Source: a virus
UHGV virus genome: UHGV-0180138
Reading direction: 5' to 3' (one strand)
DNA length: 46,657 nucleotides
In this document: positions 9,962-16,151 of the stretch, piece after piece
Layout: the number at the start of each line of letters is the position of its first letter
Position numbering within the stretch: position 1 is the stretch's first letter
Program-made: the position numbers and the translations under genes
Notes under the pieces: generated by a model
What the model was told of the DNA's origin: nothing
The model's database searches: none
The model's input: only the letters and a program-made list of their open reading frames with translations

Positions 9962-10038
9962 TTCAAGCAAACAAAATGCTCTTTAAAAATCCGGCAGCGC
10001 TGAAATGCGTAGAAATCACCTGAAAAGGAGAGAGCATT

Positions 10039-10215
10039 ATGTCTTTTGATGATTACCAATGGCATGACGACTATGAACGAGAAAGCGTCATGCGTGCAAT
10101 GTGCAATGTATGCAGCACGAAGAAAGGAGGCTGTAACGAGTGCAACGAATGCTTAGATCATTGGCTAAGGGCCGGACACGCCGAAAGGCTGAACGAAACA
10201 GAGAATCAAAAATAA
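10039..10215 (+). CDS. small Cys-rich protein (58 aa), zinc-ribbon-like
   Basis: ATG with SD AAGGAGAG; CNVCSTKKGGCNECNEC; below track cutoff. Confidence 0.4.
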   Translation: MSFDDYQWHDDYERESVMRAMCNVCSTKKGGCNECNECLDHWLRAGHAERLNETENQK

Positions 10216-10229
10216 TCGGGGTGGTTTTT

Positions 10230-10835
10230 ATGCAAAACCCTAAAAAACCCATAAGACGCCGTTGCAAATGCTGCGGCGTTTTTTTTGAGCCTAAATATCA
10301 CAATCAAACGTGGTGCAGCGATGAATGTCTGGAAGAACTGAAGTTTGATCAGCTATGTCGCGACCGTGAGAAGGCTATGAAGGCTATGGAGCGGAAGAAA
10401 CGCCGGGATAGCCAGCGTGAAGAACGCAACCGGAAGCGTAAACAGTTAAATCCGCGTAGTTATTGGTTAAAGCAGGCGCAATCGGTATTTAATGCATATA
10501 TCCGCGAACGCGACGCGGGTCAGCCGTGTATATCTTGCGGGACTTATTACGGCGATCAGTGTTCCTGGGATGCCGGGCACTATAGAACGGTTGCTGCCGC
10601 AGGGCACCTTCGTTTTAACGAAGATAACTGCCATCGCCAATGCAGGCACTGCAACCAGACATTAGACGGCAACATAGCAGCTTATCGCCCTGCACTGATT
10701 AGAAAAATTGGCCTCGCCAGGGTGGAAGCGCTGGAGAACAACAACGATACGCATAAATGGACGATCGAAGAATGTAAAGAGATTATAAAAATCTATCAGG
10801 CGAAATTGGACGCCTTAAGGAGAAAGGCAGCATGA
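10230..10835 (+). CDS. ninG: NinG/Rap-family recombination endonuclease
   Basis: Strong similarity pattern to lambda NinG (CISCG...WDAGHYRT...LRFNE...HRWTIEECK); start at in-frame ATG 10230 within track ORF. Confidence 0.8.
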   Translation: MQNPKKPIRRRCKCCGVFFEPKYHNQTWCSDECLEELKFDQLCRDREKAMKAMERKKRRDSQREERNRKRKQLNPRSYWLKQAQSVFNAYIRERDAGQPCISCGTYYGDQCSWDAGHYRTVAAAGHLRFNEDNCHRQCRHCNQTLDGNIAAYRPALIRKIGLARVEALENNNDTHKWTIEECKEIIKIYQAKLDALRRKAA

Positions 10836-11239
10836 ATGAATATTCTTTTAGCCTGCCTTACCCGCCATCGAATAACCGCTATTACCGACATTCGCGCGGT
10901 TTTCACTATATCAGCAAAGTGGGGAAGGAATACCGGGAACAAGTAAAAGACATCATCGAATTATTAAATTTAGACATTAACCTATCTTGCCGACTGGCAA
11001 TCGCCATTTATGCCGCGCCGCCGGATAACCGGATCAGAGATCTGGATAATATCCCAAAATGCCTTTTTGACAGCCTTACTTACGCCGGATTCTGGACTGA
11101 CGACGGACAAATCGACTCAATAAAAATTGTACGCTGCCGGAAGGTAAAAGGCGGGCGATTGTTTATCAAGGTACGCGAACGCGGCGACCTGCTACCGGAT
11201 ATTGACGAATACGCGACCAATATGTGGAGTGAGCAATGA
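10832..11239 (+). CDS. rusA: Holliday junction resolvase RusA
   Basis: PYPPSNNRYYRHSRG and DLDNIPKCLFDSLTYAGFWTDDGQI match RusA. Confidence 0.85.
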   Translation: MNEYSFSLPYPPSNNRYYRHSRGFHYISKVGKEYREQVKDIIELLNLDINLSCRLAIAIYAAPPDNRIRDLDNIPKCLFDSLTYAGFWTDDGQIDSIKIVRCRKVKGGRLFIKVRERGDLLPDIDEYATNMWSEQ

Positions 11240-11418
11240 AAAACGAAGTTAAAGATCTGCAAATAGATATTCAGCGCGACGAACGTGATTTAGAGACGGT
11301 CCGACAAATCCAGGCTTTCCACATGCGCGAATTACTTGCGCTGAAAGAGTTTGAAAGAAAGCTGGTGCAATCCATTTCTGATCGTAAATGCCTTATTGCT
11401 CGTTACGGGGGGAAATAA
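11236..11418 (+). CDS. hypothetical protein
   Basis: 60-aa ORF. Confidence 0.45.
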   Translation: MKNEVKDLQIDIQRDERDLETVRQIQAFHMRELLALKEFERKLVQSISDRKCLIARYGGK

Positions 11419-12140
11419 TGAATTTAGAATCCATTCTGAAATTCCACTTCCCAAAATCACCGCGATTATCAGACGAAAGCCGGGGAACATCACCTGATGC
11501 ACTTAATACTACTGATGCGCTTACCGCCGCTGGTATGGCGCAATCGCGCGTAGAGCTTGGTTATAGCGCTTTTCTAGGGAAGATGGAACTATCACAAGCC
11601 GAAAAACACAGGGCCGTAGTTTTGCTTACAGAGCGTTTAAGAGCTATGGCAAAAGATTACGAATACGTCATGGAACTGGAGGAGAGCCAGCGCAATGATT
11701 TTATTATTCTTGTTGCCGTTTTCGCGTTTCGGGATTATTGCCAAAGCGCCGCGACGGAAAAAACTTGTATGGAGTGCGGCGGATATAAATTTACGTTTGA
11801 CGAATACGGAGAAAAACACCTTTGCAAAAAATGCAAGGGGCACGGGAAAGTTCGCAATCATTGTAAACAATGCAAGGGGCGCGGCGAGATACCGGATAAA
11901 ACAGCCAGCAATGCGGCAGAAATGCCAGTCTTCAAAACGTGCCAGCACTGTGGCGGGCGCGGGTACTCGCGTTTCCCGGTAGATCTCGTCCGGCAGGCTG
12001 TTAACCAGCTTGTTTTCCCGGTAAGCCGATCAACATGGTGGAAGAAATACAGGGTTTTCTATGAGGACGCCATAGCGGAGCTATTCAAAGAAGAAGCCCG
12101 CGCGGAAAGCGAAATCAAGCGAGTGACACGGGGTGAATAA
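11418..12140 (+). CDS. Q-like late regulator candidate with four CxxCxGxG zinc-finger repeats
   Basis: Follows ninG-rusA as Q does in lambdoid phages; CMECGG/CKKCKGHG/CKQCKGRG/CQHCGGRG; start ATG 11418 overlaps upstream stop; function inferred from position. Confidence 0.35.
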   Translation: MNLESILKFHFPKSPRLSDESRGTSPDALNTTDALTAAGMAQSRVELGYSAFLGKMELSQAEKHRAVVLLTERLRAMAKDYEYVMELEESQRNDFIILVAVFAFRDYCQSAATEKTCMECGGYKFTFDEYGEKHLCKKCKGHGKVRNHCKQCKGRGEIPDKTASNAAEMPVFKTCQHCGGRGYSRFPVDLVRQAVNQLVFPVSRSTWWKKYRVFYEDAIAELFKEEARAESEIKRVTRGE

Positions 12141-12340
12141 TGGATAAGCTGGAAATAAACGATCAGTTCGCTGTTATCTTATTTGAAGACAAAACAGGCG
12201 GCGCATGGTGTAAGAAAGTTACTGGTGCGGAAGCGCGTTTAATATTAGGTATGGCAAGCGCGTTAAATGAAGGCGAATTGCCTGCCATTCCTGTTAAGCC
12301 AGTGCATATCTATAAGCGGGGCGATGATGAAAATAATTAA
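12140..12340 (+). CDS. hypothetical protein
   Basis: 66-aa ORF. Confidence 0.45.
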   Translation: MDKLEINDQFAVILFEDKTGGAWCKKVTGAEARLILGMASALNEGELPAIPVKPVHIYKRGDDENN

Positions 12341-12674
12341 TATCGGGTGGTTATATTGCGAAAACTGCTACGAAGACGGCATGCTCGTTAAGACTGAAAA
12401 AGGTTGTGGCCTCTTTCTGTATCAAGGCGATAAGTTTGTTTGTCCGCGATGCGGTGGTAGTGGTGAGATAGAAATTATTGAAGATAACGCCGAAGCGCCA
12501 GAACCAGAGCGCATTGTCCTTGACGAAAAAATAAAAATTCATCCTGATTTATTACAGCAAATTATCGATCACGTATCGGCAGCAGCAATCTACAGCAATA
12601 ACAATTATCAGCGTGAAATTAACGTCAAACGTGCGATTGAGCAGTATTTCGAGGGTGATGATAATGAAGCCTAA
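12324..12674 (+). CDS. hypothetical protein with CxxC...CxxC zinc-ribbon motif
   Basis: CENC...CPRCGG. Confidence 0.5.
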   Translation: MMKIINIGWLYCENCYEDGMLVKTEKGCGLFLYQGDKFVCPRCGGSGEIEIIEDNAEAPEPERIVLDEKIKIHPDLLQQIIDHVSAAAIYSNNNYQREINVKRAIEQYFEGDDNEA

Positions 12675-12936
12675 ATTAAAAGAACATATTTACCGCCAGT
12701 TGGTTAACGAGCTTGCGGATACAGCACGATATTACGCCGGGACACAACAGCTACGCGGGCGGCTATCTTCGGTTGTTAACCGCTATATTGATGCCGGATG
12801 CCATCGCAAAGGTGAAATTACGATGGATGAAGCCATCAAGCGCCGGACGGCTGAATGGTCAGTTAGTAACACCGGATTGACCGGATACATTGAAGGCTAT
12901 AACGACTGTTTACAGGATCATAGCGATGGCAAGTAA
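12664..12936 (+). CDS. hypothetical protein
   Basis: ATG 12664 with SD GAGGGTG. Confidence 0.5.
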   Translation: MKPKLKEHIYRQLVNELADTARYYAGTQQLRGRLSSVVNRYIDAGCHRKGEITMDEAIKRRTAEWSVSNTGLTGYIEGYNDCLQDHSDGK

Positions 12937-13234
12937 AGATCTACATTTAAACCTGAAAGGAGAATACTTTTACGCTATCCGGGCGAGAAAGAAGGTGGAG
13001 GAATACCGACTTTATAATGACTACTGGCGTAAACGCCTGGAAGGGCGGGAATATGAACGCCTGATCATTAAGCTGGGCTATCCAGCCAGCCACGAAACAC
13101 ACCGGATCATAAACCTGCCTTATTTCGGGTATGAAGTGAAAACTATCACACATCCATTGTTCGGCCCTGATCCTGTAAAGGTATTCGCAATTAAGTGTGA
13201 TGTGAATTGGATGTTAAGGTGGGGTGAGCAATGA
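12926..13234 (+). CDS. hypothetical protein
   Basis: ATG 12926 within track ORF 12890-13234. Confidence 0.5.
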   Translation: MASKDLHLNLKGEYFYAIRARKKVEEYRLYNDYWRKRLEGREYERLIIKLGYPASHETHRIINLPYFGYEVKTITHPLFGPDPVKVFAIKCDVNWMLRWGEQ

Positions 13235-13446
13235 AAAAAGCTGGCCTGTCAATTAACCGCGTATTGTGCGGCGACGAAAACGAGATCCGCATAGAAATTA
13301 AATTTAGCACAGGTAAAGAGATAATCCTTTACACGACACCTGAAAACCTGACGCTGGCACTTACTGGTAAATCTGAAACGCCGTGCGACGTCAGGTTACG
13401 CAATATTGAAATCAAGGAATTAAGGAAGGGTAAAAATGAAAAGTAA
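13231..13446 (+). CDS. hypothetical protein
   Basis: 71-aa ORF. Confidence 0.45.
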   Translation: MKKAGLSINRVLCGDENEIRIEIKFSTGKEIILYTTPENLTLALTGKSETPCDVRLRNIEIKELRKGKNEK

Positions 13447-13654
13447 CCGTAAACGCCTGGTAAGGGCGTACGATAAAGCATTAAAGGCTTTTGATGACCT
13501 GCGACACAATAAGCGCCAGCGCCGCAAGTGGGCGCGAATGCTTGTTAATGAATGGCATTATCCTGATGCTGCCTTGATAGAAGGCGCACCGCCATTTACA
13601 CAGGAGCAAGCCGACGAAGTGGCTAACGATAACGTTTACTATATGATGTGGTGA
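13436..13654 (+). CDS. hypothetical protein, paralog A of tandem pair
   Basis: MKSNRKRLVRAYDKAL...DNVYYMMW; first 17 nt identical to next gene. Confidence 0.55.
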   Translation: MKSNRKRLVRAYDKALKAFDDLRHNKRQRRKWARMLVNEWHYPDAALIEGAPPFTQEQADEVANDNVYYMMW

Positions 13655-13658
13655 CAAT

Positions 13659-13895
13659 ATGAAAAGTAACCGTAAGCGCATGATAAGAGCATATGATAGA
13701 GCGTTAATCGAATTTAACGAACTATCACGCAGTAAGCGCCGCCGCAGACAATTCGCGCGACTTCTTTTTCATGTATGGCACGACGCTGATTTCTTTTTTG
13801 ATGCCAGACATATAACACAGGAAGATGCGGATAATATAGCTTACGATAACGTTTACTACATATTAAGAAGGTGGGAATATGAAAATAATCATTGA
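13659..13895 (+). CDS. hypothetical protein, paralog B of tandem pair
   Basis: MKSNRKRMIRAYDRAL...DNVYYILRRW. Confidence 0.55.
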   Translation: MKSNRKRMIRAYDRALIEFNELSRSKRRRRQFARLLFHVWHDADFFFDARHITQEDADNIAYDNVYYILRRWEYENNH

Positions 13896-14244
13896 TTACC
13901 TTTGCCATGTATTCAATACAATTTTCGGCTTTTATCAACAACCGTTTCTCAAAGAATGGGATTCGATGCTAAACGACATCCTCGACAAAGGATTAATAAT
14001 GGAGGTTGACGAGCTTACAATCAAAATTAATTACGAAGGTGATGAATACCAAATCTGGGTAGGTAATAGATGGTATGCATACGCTCATCTTTATTCGCTA
14101 AATGGAAAACTCATCCCTAGCAGACAGGAATTTAGACCGCGTTTCCGCACAATGCGCCGACTGCATGATCTGCATATGAATATATTTGAAGATCAGGAAG
14201 AACGGGAACTATTCAAAATTTACGGGGATAAATCATGGAGCTAA
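13879..14244 (+). CDS. hypothetical protein
   Basis: 121-aa ORF. Confidence 0.5.
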   Translation: MKIIIDYLCHVFNTIFGFYQQPFLKEWDSMLNDILDKGLIMEVDELTIKINYEGDEYQIWVGNRWYAYAHLYSLNGKLIPSRQEFRPRFRTMRRLHDLHMNIFEDQEERELFKIYGDKSWS

Positions 14245-14465
14245 AAATCTGGCAGGCTATCGACGTAGTTGATAACGAATTATCCATGTTTGCCACTGAT
14301 GGAAAGCGCGTGGTGATCGCTACATGGACGCATAACCATGATGATATTGTTTTTCGTCGCAAGGCTGCGGAGTGGCTTTTCTCTGACAACGGCTACACGA
14401 TGAATATCATGCAGCTTTCCAGAATGAAGGATGAAAAGCTGGTAGACAGCTACACAACTGCATAG
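14235..14465 (+). CDS. hypothetical protein
   Basis: 76-aa ORF. Confidence 0.45.
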   Translation: MELKIWQAIDVVDNELSMFATDGKRVVIATWTHNHDDIVFRRKAAEWLFSDNGYTMNIMQLSRMKDEKLVDSYTTA

Positions 14466-14475
14466 CGGGGTAAAT

Positions 14476-14709
14476 ATGCGTATCTATGAACACAAGCGGG
14501 ATAAAACCCGCTTTTTTGTTCGTGCTGGCGTGGCGTACCAGTATCACGACTGCGGATATATTGAGGCGCTTGCTTACGACCTTGATTTCGAACAAGAAAA
14601 AGAATGGTTTGACTTTAAGATTTACCGGAAGCGCAAACCGACGCGCGACGAGCGCCACGCTATCCGTGATTTCTTAATCAGCATTGACCGCTGGGAGGCA
14701 GAGGAATGA
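14476..14709 (+). CDS. hypothetical protein
   Basis: 77-aa ORF. Confidence 0.45.
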   Translation: MRIYEHKRDKTRFFVRAGVAYQYHDCGYIEALAYDLDFEQEKEWFDFKIYRKRKPTRDERHAIRDFLISIDRWEAEE

Positions 14710-14999
14710 AAACGAAGAAAACAGCAGATCAGAAAGCGTTAGTTATCGCTACAACGGACGTGTCGTTATTCACGAAGGGTGAAGAAATAGATCTTAAATT
14801 GCTTTTCGGTATGTTTGAGCCGCACGAAAAGCCGTGGTTTGTTCATGAAGATAAACAGGGAAATATGCGTGTCGTAGTGCCGGATAAAAACAGCGACATA
14901 TTTTTCGCTATTCCAGATCCGTTGCATGACGGTGAAGTGCTGGCGGTATTGTTGATTGCTGATGCTGTTACTTATAAGGGTAAAAAATATGAAAGTTAA
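14706..14999 (+). CDS. hypothetical protein
   Basis: 97-aa ORF. Confidence 0.5.
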   Translation: MKTKKTADQKALVIATTDVSLFTKGEEIDLKLLFGMFEPHEKPWFVHEDKQGNMRVVVPDKNSDIFFAIPDPLHDGEVLAVLLIADAVTYKGKKYES

Positions 15000-15216
15000 A
15001 TTCTTGCACGATCACGGATACCCGTCATTAAAACGCGTGGTAGGGGAAACGGTAGACGTTGTTCATTCTGATGATGTGACCTGCGTCATTATGGGTAAAG
15101 ACCTTATCGCTCACGGTGCTGATGATCACTACATTAACCCGGCGTGGTCATATACGTTTAGCCTGGGCGACTTCGTAGGCGATAAGGGTCGCGGTCTGCA
15201 AGTGGTCGAGGGTTAA
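14989..15216 (+). CDS. hypothetical protein
   Basis: ATG 14989 within track ORF. Confidence 0.45.
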   Translation: MKVKFLHDHGYPSLKRVVGETVDVVHSDDVTCVIMGKDLIAHGADDHYINPAWSYTFSLGDFVGDKGRGLQVVEG

Positions 15217-15220
15217 TATT

Positions 15221-15436
15221 ATGGACGTTTACGAGGATCTATACCTACAGACAAATAGCCGCACTTTTTATTTTCTGAAAAGCGGCGTCGTATATCGCAG
15301 CGACGACGGGGTGATAATGAAAGAGTGGTTATTTAAGCGTAAAGACCTACTTGATGATCTGGTTTTTGCCGGGATATTCCGTAAACGTCCGGCTAACCTG
15401 GAAGAAGAAATGCTGATCGACGAGGTATTAAAATGA
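15221..15436 (+). CDS. hypothetical protein
   Basis: 71-aa ORF. Confidence 0.45.
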   Translation: MDVYEDLYLQTNSRTFYFLKSGVVYRSDDGVIMKEWLFKRKDLLDDLVFAGIFRKRPANLEEEMLIDEVLK

Positions 15437-15684
15437 AAATCAAGGTAAGTTATTTCAGGGCGAAAGATAAGGCCACTGGACGGATGATGGCTATCCTGGT
15501 TAACGAAGCGAATTATATGTTTTTCCTTCAACCGTGGTGTATTGCCGATCTTAATGACGATTATCGACGTCACGCCGCGCGAAGTGCGGTAGGCATGAAA
15601 GGCTGGCAACCGCGCGACATGCTCAATTATTGCGACTGGAATCTGATAGCGAAATACACGGTCGATTATAAAGGGGTTTTCTAA
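15433..15684 (+). CDS. hypothetical protein
   Basis: 83-aa ORF. Confidence 0.5.
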   Translation: MKIKVSYFRAKDKATGRMMAILVNEANYMFFLQPWCIADLNDDYRRHAARSAVGMKGWQPRDMLNYCDWNLIAKYTVDYKGVF

Positions 15685-15890
15685 TGTATGTTCGATGCAC
15701 TGAATCAAAAACATTATGCTTTGAGGTTGGCGGAATATATACCGTAGATCACCTGACTGGTGATGAAAATAACATCCAATACATTAAAGACGATCACGGC
15801 GACGCGTGGCGCTATTGGGATTGTTACGCACGGGGACACGTTACCAGTCATTTCGGTACGGAAGCGATCGCGCGTTTTGTTAAATGGTAA
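15684..15890 (+). CDS. small protein, member 1 of four-gene tandem paralog family
   Basis: VRCTESKTLCFEVGGIYT...DDHGDAWRYW; shared pattern C-x-ES-K-x-x-F-x-x-G-x-Y ... D-x-x-G-x-x-W. Confidence 0.5.
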   Translation: MYVRCTESKTLCFEVGGIYTVDHLTGDENNIQYIKDDHGDAWRYWDCYARGHVTSHFGTEAIARFVKW

Positions 15891-15899
15891 GGGGTAAGC

Positions 15900-16151
15900 A
15901 TGAAGCATTTATATTTTGAGGTATTGCATACGCGCGACCGCAATATTTTTGAAGAAGGTAAGATCTATTGCGGCGTTCAACTACACGGCGCACCGGGCGG
16001 TGAGGCGATGGCGATAACTGGTGATGATGATAAGGTTTATTTTGCTTATGTCACACGCTTTCCACACACTGACAAGGTTTATTATCGCATCGTGCATGAC
16101 TTCCATGGCGTAGCTGTATTTTGTGACCGCGAAGGCAGTAAACCGGAATAG
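15900..16151 (+). CDS. small protein, member 2 of tandem paralog family
   Basis: More divergent; FEEGKIYCG ... GDDDKVYFAY. Confidence 0.45.
   Translation: MKHLYFEVLHTRDRNIFEEGKIYCGVQLHGAPGGEAMAITGDDDKVYFAYVTRFPHTDKVYYRIVHDFHGVAVFCDREGSKPE

What the first reader, a model, noticed from the sequence alone, without database searches (positions are those of the whole stretch)
13436..13895. Adjacent duplicated gene pair (MKSNRKR... paralogs)
The two genes share an identical first 17 nt and protein pattern MKSNRKR[LM][VI]RAYD[KR]AL ... KR.RR ... DNVYY but have diverged in the middle. This is a recent tandem duplication of a small basic protein.
Basis: seen in the sequence. Interest (0 to 1): 0.35.

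Follow-up and report, generated by a model that had tools for sequence, protein, structure and literature searches.

The report
Old tandem paralogs in coliphage
Two neighbouring small phage genes really are duplicates of each other, but the duplication is old, occurs in only a minority of related E. coli phages, and involves a protein of unknown function, so it is an ordinary piece of phage accessory-gene evolution.

Summary
Two intact + strand ORFs, A (13436-13654, 72 aa) and B (13659-13895, 78 aa), lie 4 nt apart. They are 54% identical (E 3e-25), and still 47% identical (E 1e-15) without the shared N-terminus. The reading "recent duplication" is wrong. Synonymous sites between A and B are near saturation (dS about 0.9 overall, pS 0.70 in the C-half), and dN/dS is about 0.3. 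B has its own orthologues (78-96% identical) in other prophages and metagenomic phage genomes, always directly 3' of an A copy. The window is an mEpimmI-group (mEp021-like) temperate coliphage. The pair lies in a roughly 2.1-kb accessory block after the Q-like antiterminator gene, and mEp021 lacks this block. Most relatives carry only A: all 12 GenBank phage records, 27 of 30 complete E. coli genomes with the family, and about 40 of 47 IMG/VR loci. Genomes with identical A proteins differ in whether they have B. Both proteins model as the same three-helix fold, with a very basic N-half and an acidic C-half. They match no Pfam, NCBIfam, PADLOC or structural family; only PHROG 8758 (unknown function). 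Low interest.

The parts
13436..13654 (+). Gene A, 72 aa. It is the orthologue of the single-copy gene in related mEpimmI phages. Its start overlaps the stop of the upstream 71-aa gene by 11 nt, and an SD-like AAGGAAGGG lies upstream.
   Evidence: ORF list. It is 74-85% identical to the single copy in mEp044, mEp010, mEp554, MagusPhagus and mEp013, and 97% to IMG/VR L018 and L019. It matches phrog_8758 at E 2e-25. The AF2 model has pLDDT 80.7 with helices 4-19, 26-41 and 56-71.
13659..13895 (+). Gene B, 78 aa, the diverged tandem paralogue. Its last 17 nt overlap the start of the downstream 121-aa gene, because the ancestral TAA stop was removed by a 3-nt deletion.
   Evidence: ORF list. It is 96% identical to P0001 (seen on 152 contigs) and 82% to P0002, but only 54-62% to any single-copy phage gene. 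It matches phrog_8758 at E 1.4e-23. The AF2 model has pLDDT 83.4 with helices 2-18, 26-40 and 54-77. The 3' end was compared with UMNK88 and Ecol_244 B copies.
13652..13661 (+). Duplication junction TGA-caat-ATG: the stop of A, a 4-nt spacer, then the start of B.
   Evidence: Single-copy genomes have the same TGA-(c/t)aat-ATG, but there the ATG starts the downstream 121-aa gene (ATGCAAATAATC...). The duplicated unit therefore runs from start codon to start codon, 223 nt.
13433..13644 (+). First copy of the DNA repeat unit.
   Evidence: Repeat families D1 and D2: 135 nt at 72% and 47 nt at 77% identity to 13656-13790 and 13815-13861. MAFFT pairwise alignment.
13879..14244 (+). Downstream 121-aa gene (phrog_16975, unknown function). 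It is the conserved 3' neighbour in both single-copy and double-copy genomes.
12145..14221 (+). Accessory block of small genes between the Q-like antiterminator gene (11388-12140) and the conserved genes homologous to mEp021 gp38 and gp39. It contains the A/B pair and is absent from mEp021.
   Evidence: blastn of window 10000-16000 against mEp021 aligns 10000-12144 and 14222-14710 to contiguous mEp021 sequence. mEp021 annotation.

Best explanation
A and B are an old tandem duplicate pair of a small accessory gene in a temperate E. coli phage of the mEpimmI (mEp021-like) group. The gene encodes a protein of about 70 aa that belongs only to PHROG 8758.

Shown:
- The duplicated unit runs from the gene's start codon to the start codon of the next gene (223 nt).
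- Both copies are intact and under purifying selection.
- Synonymous sites between them are near saturation.
- B forms its own orthologous lineage and is only ever found directly 3' of an A copy.
- B is present in a minority of related genomes and varies in presence even among genomes whose A proteins are identical.

Inferred:
- The duplication arose once, by unequal or illegitimate recombination at the AATATG(A/C)AAA microhomology shared by the two start regions. The ancestor carried a 'FFLEARHMTQEDAD'-type C-half, which is the A class that B's C-half most resembles.
- Afterwards the basic N-terminal half of B diverged quickly, while that of A stayed almost frozen.
- B has since been lost, or moved by recombination, as a cassette.

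Function is inferred and weak. Both proteins are predicted three-helix proteins with a strongly basic helix-turn-helix-like hairpin (residues 1-41, pI about 12, conserved KRxRRxxAR) and an acidic C-terminal helix (pI about 4).
- I consider the most likely role (about 30%) to be a delayed-early, non-essential nucleic-acid-binding or regulatory protein. It would be transcribed from the early-right operon distal to the Q-like gene, with B a sub- or neo-functionalised partner or variant.
- A host-protein-binding takeover or counter-defence role is about equally possible.
For: - **Homology:**
- **Age:** dS(A,B) is 0.9-1.3 in every within-genome and between-genome comparison, with dN/dS about 0.2-0.35. 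By halves, window A vs B gives pS 0.44 (N-half) and 0.70 (C-half).
- **B lineage:** window B is 96% identical to M1/5 B, 84% to Ecol_244 B and 78% to UMNK88 B. All 10 contigs examined that encode P0001 have a 66-aa A-type gene immediately 5'.
- **Census:**
  - All 12 GenBank phage records with the family have one place each.
  - 30 of 5426 complete E. coli genomes carry the family, and only 3 carry a B-type.
  - Of 47 IMG/VR loci, 5 have a full pair, 1 has a B with a nonsense codon, and 1 has a different third paralogue.
- **Presence/absence with identical A:** the UMNK88-type A protein occurs in 9 loci, 3 with B and 6 without. Window-type A (97% identical) in L018 and L019 has no B.
- **Junction:**
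- **Asymmetry:** the A N-half is 92-100% conserved across most alleles (73-76% for the M1/5-type), while the B N-half is 59-65% identical to them. The B C-half is 61-64% identical to the FFLEARHM class but 45-48% to the window-A class.
- **Fold and charge:**
- **Context:** NinG, RusA and Q-like (PF03589) genes lie upstream. The block is absent from mEp021. A promoter-like plus terminator-like pair lies just downstream at 14383-14519. The mEpimmI paper places the variable genes mainly in the regulation cluster and mentions no duplication or paralogue (PMC11893012).
Against: - No direct evidence of function exists. There is no hit in Pfam, NCBIfam or PADLOC, none in PDB sequences, and no significant Foldseek match in PDB or BFVD.
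- The family has only 12 representatives at E <= 1e-3 among 1.84 billion cluster representatives, one of them a spurious repetitive protein. There is no conserved neighbour in Sashavirus-type outgroups.
- A single in-situ origin is inferred from B never being seen alone. I did not obtain a bootstrapped tree (timed out), and the gene is short and mosaic.
- The transcription unit is inferred from pattern scans only.
- One B copy carries a nonsense codon (L048), and most relatives lack B, so B is dispensable.
Confidence: 0.8

Rival explanations
1. Recent tandem duplication: the two copies arose in this phage or its immediate ancestor and have only begun to diverge.
For: The genes are adjacent, on the same strand, with identical first 17 nt and conserved termini.
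Against: - dS is about 0.9-1.3, with pS 0.70 in the C-half.
- B orthologues at 78-96% identity exist in several distinct prophage lineages, paired with four different A alleles.
- The 5' identity is family-wide, not specific to this pair.
Confidence: 0.02
2. Not an in-situ duplication. B would be a divergent allele of the same gene from another phage lineage, placed next to A by recombination between two co-infecting or resident phages (a xenologous 'pseudo-paralogue').
For: - The region is highly mosaic. Identity changes abruptly at the gene: L049 vs L057 is 99% upstream and 90% downstream.
- B presence varies among genomes with identical A.
- The B C-half resembles a different A allele class from the one next to it.
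- L041 shows another, different paralogue 5' of A.
Against: - No B-type gene was found as a sole copy in the roughly 20 B-carrying loci examined.
- Only two 90%-identity clusters of B exist among 5.8 billion clusters, and the examples examined are in pairs.
- The junction reproduces the native 3' flank of the single-copy gene exactly up to the ATG, as expected for a head-to-tail duplication.
Confidence: 0.13
3. B is a decaying, functionally redundant copy (a relaxed pseudogene in the making), and only A matters.
For: - Most relatives lack B.
- One B carries a nonsense codon.
- Within-B dN/dS is 0.3-0.5, higher than within A at 0.15-0.21.
- B's stop codon has shifted in the window.
- RefSeq left the M1/5 copy unannotated.
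Against: - B is intact in at least 19 of 20 B-carrying loci, despite saturated synonymous divergence from A.
- dN/dS is below 1 both within B and between A and B.
- The family's invariant residues (R10, A11, D13, L16, F19, K26, R29, R30, A33, R34, Q, A-D, Y) are all kept in B.
- The AF2 model is confident and has the same topology.
Confidence: 0.05

Closest known systems
PHROG 8758 (phage protein family of unknown function)
   Same: Both A and B match it strongly (E 2e-25 and 1.4e-23) over their whole length.
   Different: They cover only profile positions 71-151 of 151, so some PHROG members carry an extra N-terminal part of about 70 residues that is absent here. The family has no assigned function, so membership explains nothing about mechanism.
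Single-copy orthologues in mEpimmI phages (mEp044_51, mEp013_51, MagusPhagus CDS0086, E. coli PAR WP_089580267.1) and in Sashavirus (Sasha gp14)
   Same: In mEpimmI phages the gene has the same position, between the ASCH-like or 71-aa genes and the 121-aa gene, downstream of the Q-like gene. It has the same start sequence and the same termini. Sasha gp14 is 55% identical to A.
   Different: Those genomes have one copy and the window has two. In Sasha no neighbouring gene is shared.
Tandem A+B pairs in E. coli prophages UMNK88 (WP_000841536.1 + WP_032193522.1), Ecol_244 and M1/5, and in metagenomic 52-60 kb phage contigs
   Same: They have the same two-gene arrangement, the same TGA-(c/t)aa(t/c)-ATG junction and orthologous B genes.
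   Different: The A allele paired with B differs in each lineage, with four C-half classes. UMNK88 and Ecol_244 B copies keep the TAA stop (73 aa), while the window and M1/5 B copies run 5 codons further into the next gene.
Lambda nin-region small proteins (NinE, NinF, NinH) and arginine-rich-motif proteins such as lambda N and mEp021 Gp17
   Same: They resemble A and B in kind only. All are small basic proteins encoded in the early-right operon near NinG, RusA and Q, and A and B have an arginine-rich stretch (KRQRRKWAR / KRRRRQFAR) on helix 2.
   Different: There is no sequence similarity to any Pfam or NCBIfam model, including the Nin families, and no similarity to any other ORF in the window. 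RNA or DNA binding is untested.

Membership tests
Tandem paralogue pair (gene duplication) | Statistically significant similarity over the full length, not only a shared terminus | tested here: met
   54% identity, E 3e-25. 47% identity, E 1e-15 without residues 1-16. Shuffle z-scores are 31 and 21.5.
Tandem paralogue pair (gene duplication) | Adjacent, same strand, head-to-tail, with a junction that reproduces the native flank | tested here: met
   The spacer is 4 nt. The TGA-caat-ATG junction equals the 3' flank of the single-copy gene.
Tandem paralogue pair (gene duplication) | Both copies are intact coding genes under purifying selection | tested here: met
   dN/dS is about 0.3 between A and B, 0.15-0.21 within A and 0.3-0.5 within B. 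Both ORFs are conserved across many genomes.
Recent duplication | Low synonymous divergence between the copies; copies within a genome closer than copies between genomes | tested here: not met
   dS is 0.92 (pS 0.53) for the window pair. Within-genome and between-genome A-B distances are the same. B orthologues exist elsewhere.
PHROG 8758 | Significant HMM match | tested here: met
   E 2e-25 and 1.4e-23, but only to profile positions 71-151.
mEpimmI (mEp021-like) phage group, as the genomic host of the pair | Nucleotide similarity and synteny with the described members | tested here: met
   About 83% nt identity to MagusPhagus, mEp044, mEp013, mEp554 and mEp010, and 88-89% to mEp021 in the flanking conserved genes. 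Gene order is NinG-RusA-Q-like. The group is described in PMC11893012.
Lambda Nin-region protein families / known DNA- or RNA-binding domain families | Match to a curated domain model | tested here: not met
   There were no Pfam hits at E <= 1. The only NCBIfam hit is far below its cutoff (GapS1, 14 bits against 320). The PDB sequence search found nothing relevant. Foldseek found no match at E <= 0.001 in PDB or BFVD.
Anti-phage defence system components | Match to a PADLOC model | tested here: not met
   There were no hits at E <= 1 for A, B or three neighbours.
Arginine-rich-motif RNA-binding antiterminators (lambda N / Gp17 type) | Binding to a boxB-type RNA hairpin and dependence on Nus factors | not testable with these tools
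   Only an arginine-rich stretch on predicted helix 2 is seen. No other ORF of the window shows homology.

The most novel reading that the evidence does not exclude
The family could be an undescribed class of small bipolar three-helix phage proteins. In this reading an almost invariant basic hairpin engages a conserved target, either nucleic acid or an acidic host factor. A rapidly diversifying loop and acidic helix (at least four allelic classes) would set specificity. Tandem paralogues (A+B here, C+A in L041) would then be repeatedly recruited to broaden that specificity, for example as counter-defence or exclusion-escape factors, with B working only together with A as a heterodimer.
Probability: 0.1. 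Interest if true: 0.5.

Novelty: new member of a known kind. Interest (0 to 1): 0.15.

Why it matters
The practical value is limited. The result corrects the dating of the duplication from recent to old. It shows that the pair is a presence/absence polymorphism in the variable 'regulation cluster' of a newly described, gut-prevalent coliphage group. It also flags a narrowly distributed orphan family with a conserved basic half and a variable acidic half, and with repeated tandem expansion. That family could be a reasonable candidate when screening small early phage proteins for host-takeover or counter-defence activity. Nothing here challenges current understanding of phage genome evolution.

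Tried and rejected
- **Domain and family searches.** Pfam, NCBIfam and PADLOC gave nothing for A, B or their neighbours.
- **Exhaustive HMM search.** Of 1.84 billion representatives, 12 hit. One was a repetitive 2624-aa artefact (P0037) and several were deletion-fusion fragments.
- **Structure searches.** AF2 models of A and B were searched with Foldseek against PDB (both) and BFVD (A only). No match reached E <= 0.001, and the weak influenza NS1 RNA-binding-domain and ribosomal-protein hits have probability <= 0.1, so I did not use them. The PDB sequence profile search gave nothing.
- **Other databases.** The GTDB species-representative genome scan gave no confirmed locus. Rfam and tRNA scans of the whole window found nothing.
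- **Conserved neighbourhood.** None was found in the Sashavirus-type outgroups.
- **Bootstrapped NJ trees.** These timed out. I replaced them with identity tables by protein half and pooled Nei-Gojobori statistics.
- **Gene conversion or concerted evolution between A and B.** Rejected, because within-genome A-B distances equal between-genome ones.
- **A third copy in the window.** Rejected.

Full report
**1. Observation**

The window has two + strand ORFs at exactly the reported coordinates.
- A is 13436-13654 (72 aa).
- B is 13659-13895 (78 aa).
- They are separated by 4 nt: the stop TGA, then caat, then ATG.

Similarity:
- Their first 17 nt are identical.
- BLASTP gives 38/71 identities (54%), E 3e-25.
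- The local alignment score is 31 standard deviations above shuffles.
Without the first 16 residues the two proteins are still 47% identical, E 1e-15, z = 21.5.
- The DNA repeat is seen as 13433-13567 vs 13656-13790 (72%) and 13598-13644 vs 13815-13861 (77%).
- There is no third copy in the window.

**2. Where the window comes from**

The region is about 83% identical at the nucleotide level to Escherichia phages MagusPhagus, mEp044, mEp013, mEp554 and mEp010, and 88-89% identical to mEp021 in conserved flanks. This is the mEpimmI group of Nus-dependent, non-lambdoid temperate coliphages described in PMC11893012. That paper says the variable genes lie mainly in the 'regulation cluster', and it does not use the words 'duplication' or 'paralog' anywhere.

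Upstream of the pair are NinG, RusA and a Q-like antiterminator gene (PF03589; window 11388-12140). Window 12145-14221 is a run of small overlapping genes that includes the pair. It has no counterpart in mEp021, where the Q-like gene is followed directly by the homologue of window 14222-14710. Just after the block there is a promoter-like site (14383-14410) and a terminator-like hairpin (14494-14519). By inference only, the pair therefore sits at the distal end of the early-right operon.

**3. Single versus double copy in relatives**

- GenBank phages: 12 records hold a relative, each at one place. mEp021 and mEp515 hold none.
- Complete E. coli genomes: 30 of 5426 carry the family. Only three (M1/5, Ecol_244, UMNK88) carry a B-type gene, in each case directly 3' of an A-type gene.
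- Contigs encoding P0001 (96% identical to B, seen on 152 contigs): all 10 examined are mostly 52-60 kb (two longer, 87 and 213 kb). All have a 66-aa A-type gene immediately upstream.
- IMG/VR sample of 47 loci:
  - 5 have a full A+B pair.
  - 1 has A plus a B with a Q32 nonsense codon.
  - 1 (L041) has a different, third paralogue type placed 5' of A.
  - The rest are single.
- B is never seen alone.
- Genomes with the same A protein differ in having B. The UMNK88-type A occurs 3 times with B and 6 times without. The alleles closest to window A (97%, L018 and L019) have no B.

**4. Age and selection**

- Nei-Gojobori dS between A and B is 0.9-1.3 in every within-genome and between-genome comparison, with dN/dS about 0.2-0.35.
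- For the window pair, pS is 0.44 in codons 1-37 and 0.70 in codons 38-72.
- Window B is 96%, 84% and 78% identical to the B copies of M1/5, Ecol_244 and UMNK88, but only 49-56% identical to any A.
- The duplication therefore predates the divergence of these prophage lineages, and there is no concerted evolution.
- The shared 5' end is conserved across the whole family, so it says nothing about age.

**5. Anatomy of the duplication**

Single-copy genomes read ...TGG TGA (c/t)aat ATG CAA ATA ATC..., where the ATG starts the 121-aa downstream gene. Double-copy genomes read ...TGG TGA (c/t)aa(t/c) ATG AAA AGT..., where the ATG starts B. B is then followed by the same downstream gene.

The unit therefore runs from start codon to start codon. 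This is consistent with unequal recombination at the short AATATG(A/C)AAA similarity between the two start regions, which is an inference.

In the window and in M1/5, a 3-nt deletion removed B's TAA stop. B therefore extends 5 codons and overlaps the next gene by 17 nt.

**6. Asymmetric divergence and mosaicism**

- Among A alleles the basic N-half is 92-100% identical to window A in most alleles (73-76% for the M1/5-type). The C-half falls into at least four classes.
- B's N-half is only 59-65% identical to A alleles.
- B's C-half (WHDADFFFDARHITQEDAD) is closest to the FFLEARHM class (61-64%), not to the window's own A (45%).
- This fits a duplication of an FFLEARHM-type ancestor, fast change in B's N-half, and later allele shuffling at A. 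The abrupt identity changes at the gene also fit, for example L049 vs L057 at 99% upstream and 90% downstream.
- Within-B dN/dS is 0.3-0.5, so B is still constrained.

**7. What the protein is**

- There is no Pfam, NCBIfam or PADLOC match. The only family match is PHROG 8758, of unknown function, and it covers only the C-terminal 81 of 151 profile positions.
- An exhaustive HMM search of 1.84 billion cluster representatives found only 12 hits, so the family is narrow.
- AF2 models are fairly confident: A has pLDDT 80.7 and pTM 0.70; B has pLDDT 83.4 and pTM 0.74. They share one topology of three main helices plus a short one.
- Foldseek finds nothing significant in PDB or BFVD.
- The proteins are bipolar. 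Residues 1-37 have pI about 12 (13-14 K+R), and the remainder has pI 4-4.7.
- Invariant residues cluster on helices 1 and 2 (R10, A11, Y12, D13, L16, F19, K26, R29, R30, A33, R34) and on helix 3 (Q, A-D, N, Y-Y).
- No neighbouring gene is conserved in Sashavirus-type outgroups.
- Function therefore remains inferred. My best guess is a non-essential delayed-early nucleic-acid-binding or host-factor-binding protein.

**8. Verdict**

'Tandem duplication of a small basic protein' is correct and 'recent' is wrong. The pair is an old, polymorphic accessory-gene duplication of an orphan family. It is already present, though unremarked, in public prophage and phage sequences. It is ordinary for phage accessory regions and of low interest.

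Noticed in passing
window 12145-14221: This block of about 2.1 kb of small overlapping genes lies between the Q-like gene and the homologues of mEp021 gp38 and gp39, and it is absent from mEp021. It includes an ASCH-like gene at 12890-13234 (phrog_625), whose homologues RefSeq names 'RNA-binding protein'. It behaves as a variable accessory module.
   Followed up: partly
window 14383-14519: A promoter-like site (CTGACA-16 nt-TATCAT, 10 of 12 matches) is followed about 85 nt later by a strong terminator-like hairpin (AAGCGGGATAAAACCCGCTTTTTT). The two elements lie in the 3' end of ORF 14235-14465 and the 5' part of ORF 14476-14709. In mEp021 the homologous sequence lies just after the Q-like gene, so it may be a pR'/tR'-like late-transcription start.
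   Followed up: no
window 13028-13045 and 13448-13465: A 16-of-18-nt microhomology (CGTAAACGCCTGG...) links the ASCH-like gene and gene A. Database protein P0022 is exactly the fusion that a deletion between these sites would produce. Other deletion fusions in this block also exist (P0030, P0031, P0035, P0039).
   Followed up: partly
L041 1000-1188 (IMG/VR UViG_2695420718_000019): A third, more divergent paralogue (62 aa, MKSNLKRLVRAYDKCLCYFDDLKNNKRKRRRIARKL...) sits immediately 5' of that phage's A copy. The family has therefore formed tandem pairs at least twice in different ways.
   Followed up: partly
L048 1406-1642 (IMG/VR UViG_3300045988_084845): The B copy carries a CAA to TAA nonsense change at codon 32, while the rest is nearly identical to intact B copies. 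This is a likely recent inactivation.
   Followed up: yes
L004 1912-2148 (E. coli M1/5, NZ_CP053296.1): An intact 78-aa B ORF (96% identical to window B) lies in a stretch that RefSeq leaves unannotated, between HLK60_RS12860 and HLK60_RS12855.
   Followed up: yes
window 13865-13895: Compared with UMNK88 and Ecol_244, a 3-nt deletion removed B's TAA stop. B now ends 17 nt inside the downstream gene (start 13879), which adds the residues YENNH.
   Followed up: yes
phrog_8758 profile, positions 1-70: A and B match only the C-terminal 81 of the 151 profile positions. Some family members therefore carry an extra N-terminal part that was not identified here. A 170-aa Enterobacter phage Ec_L1 protein was the top, non-significant BFVD hit.
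   Followed up: no
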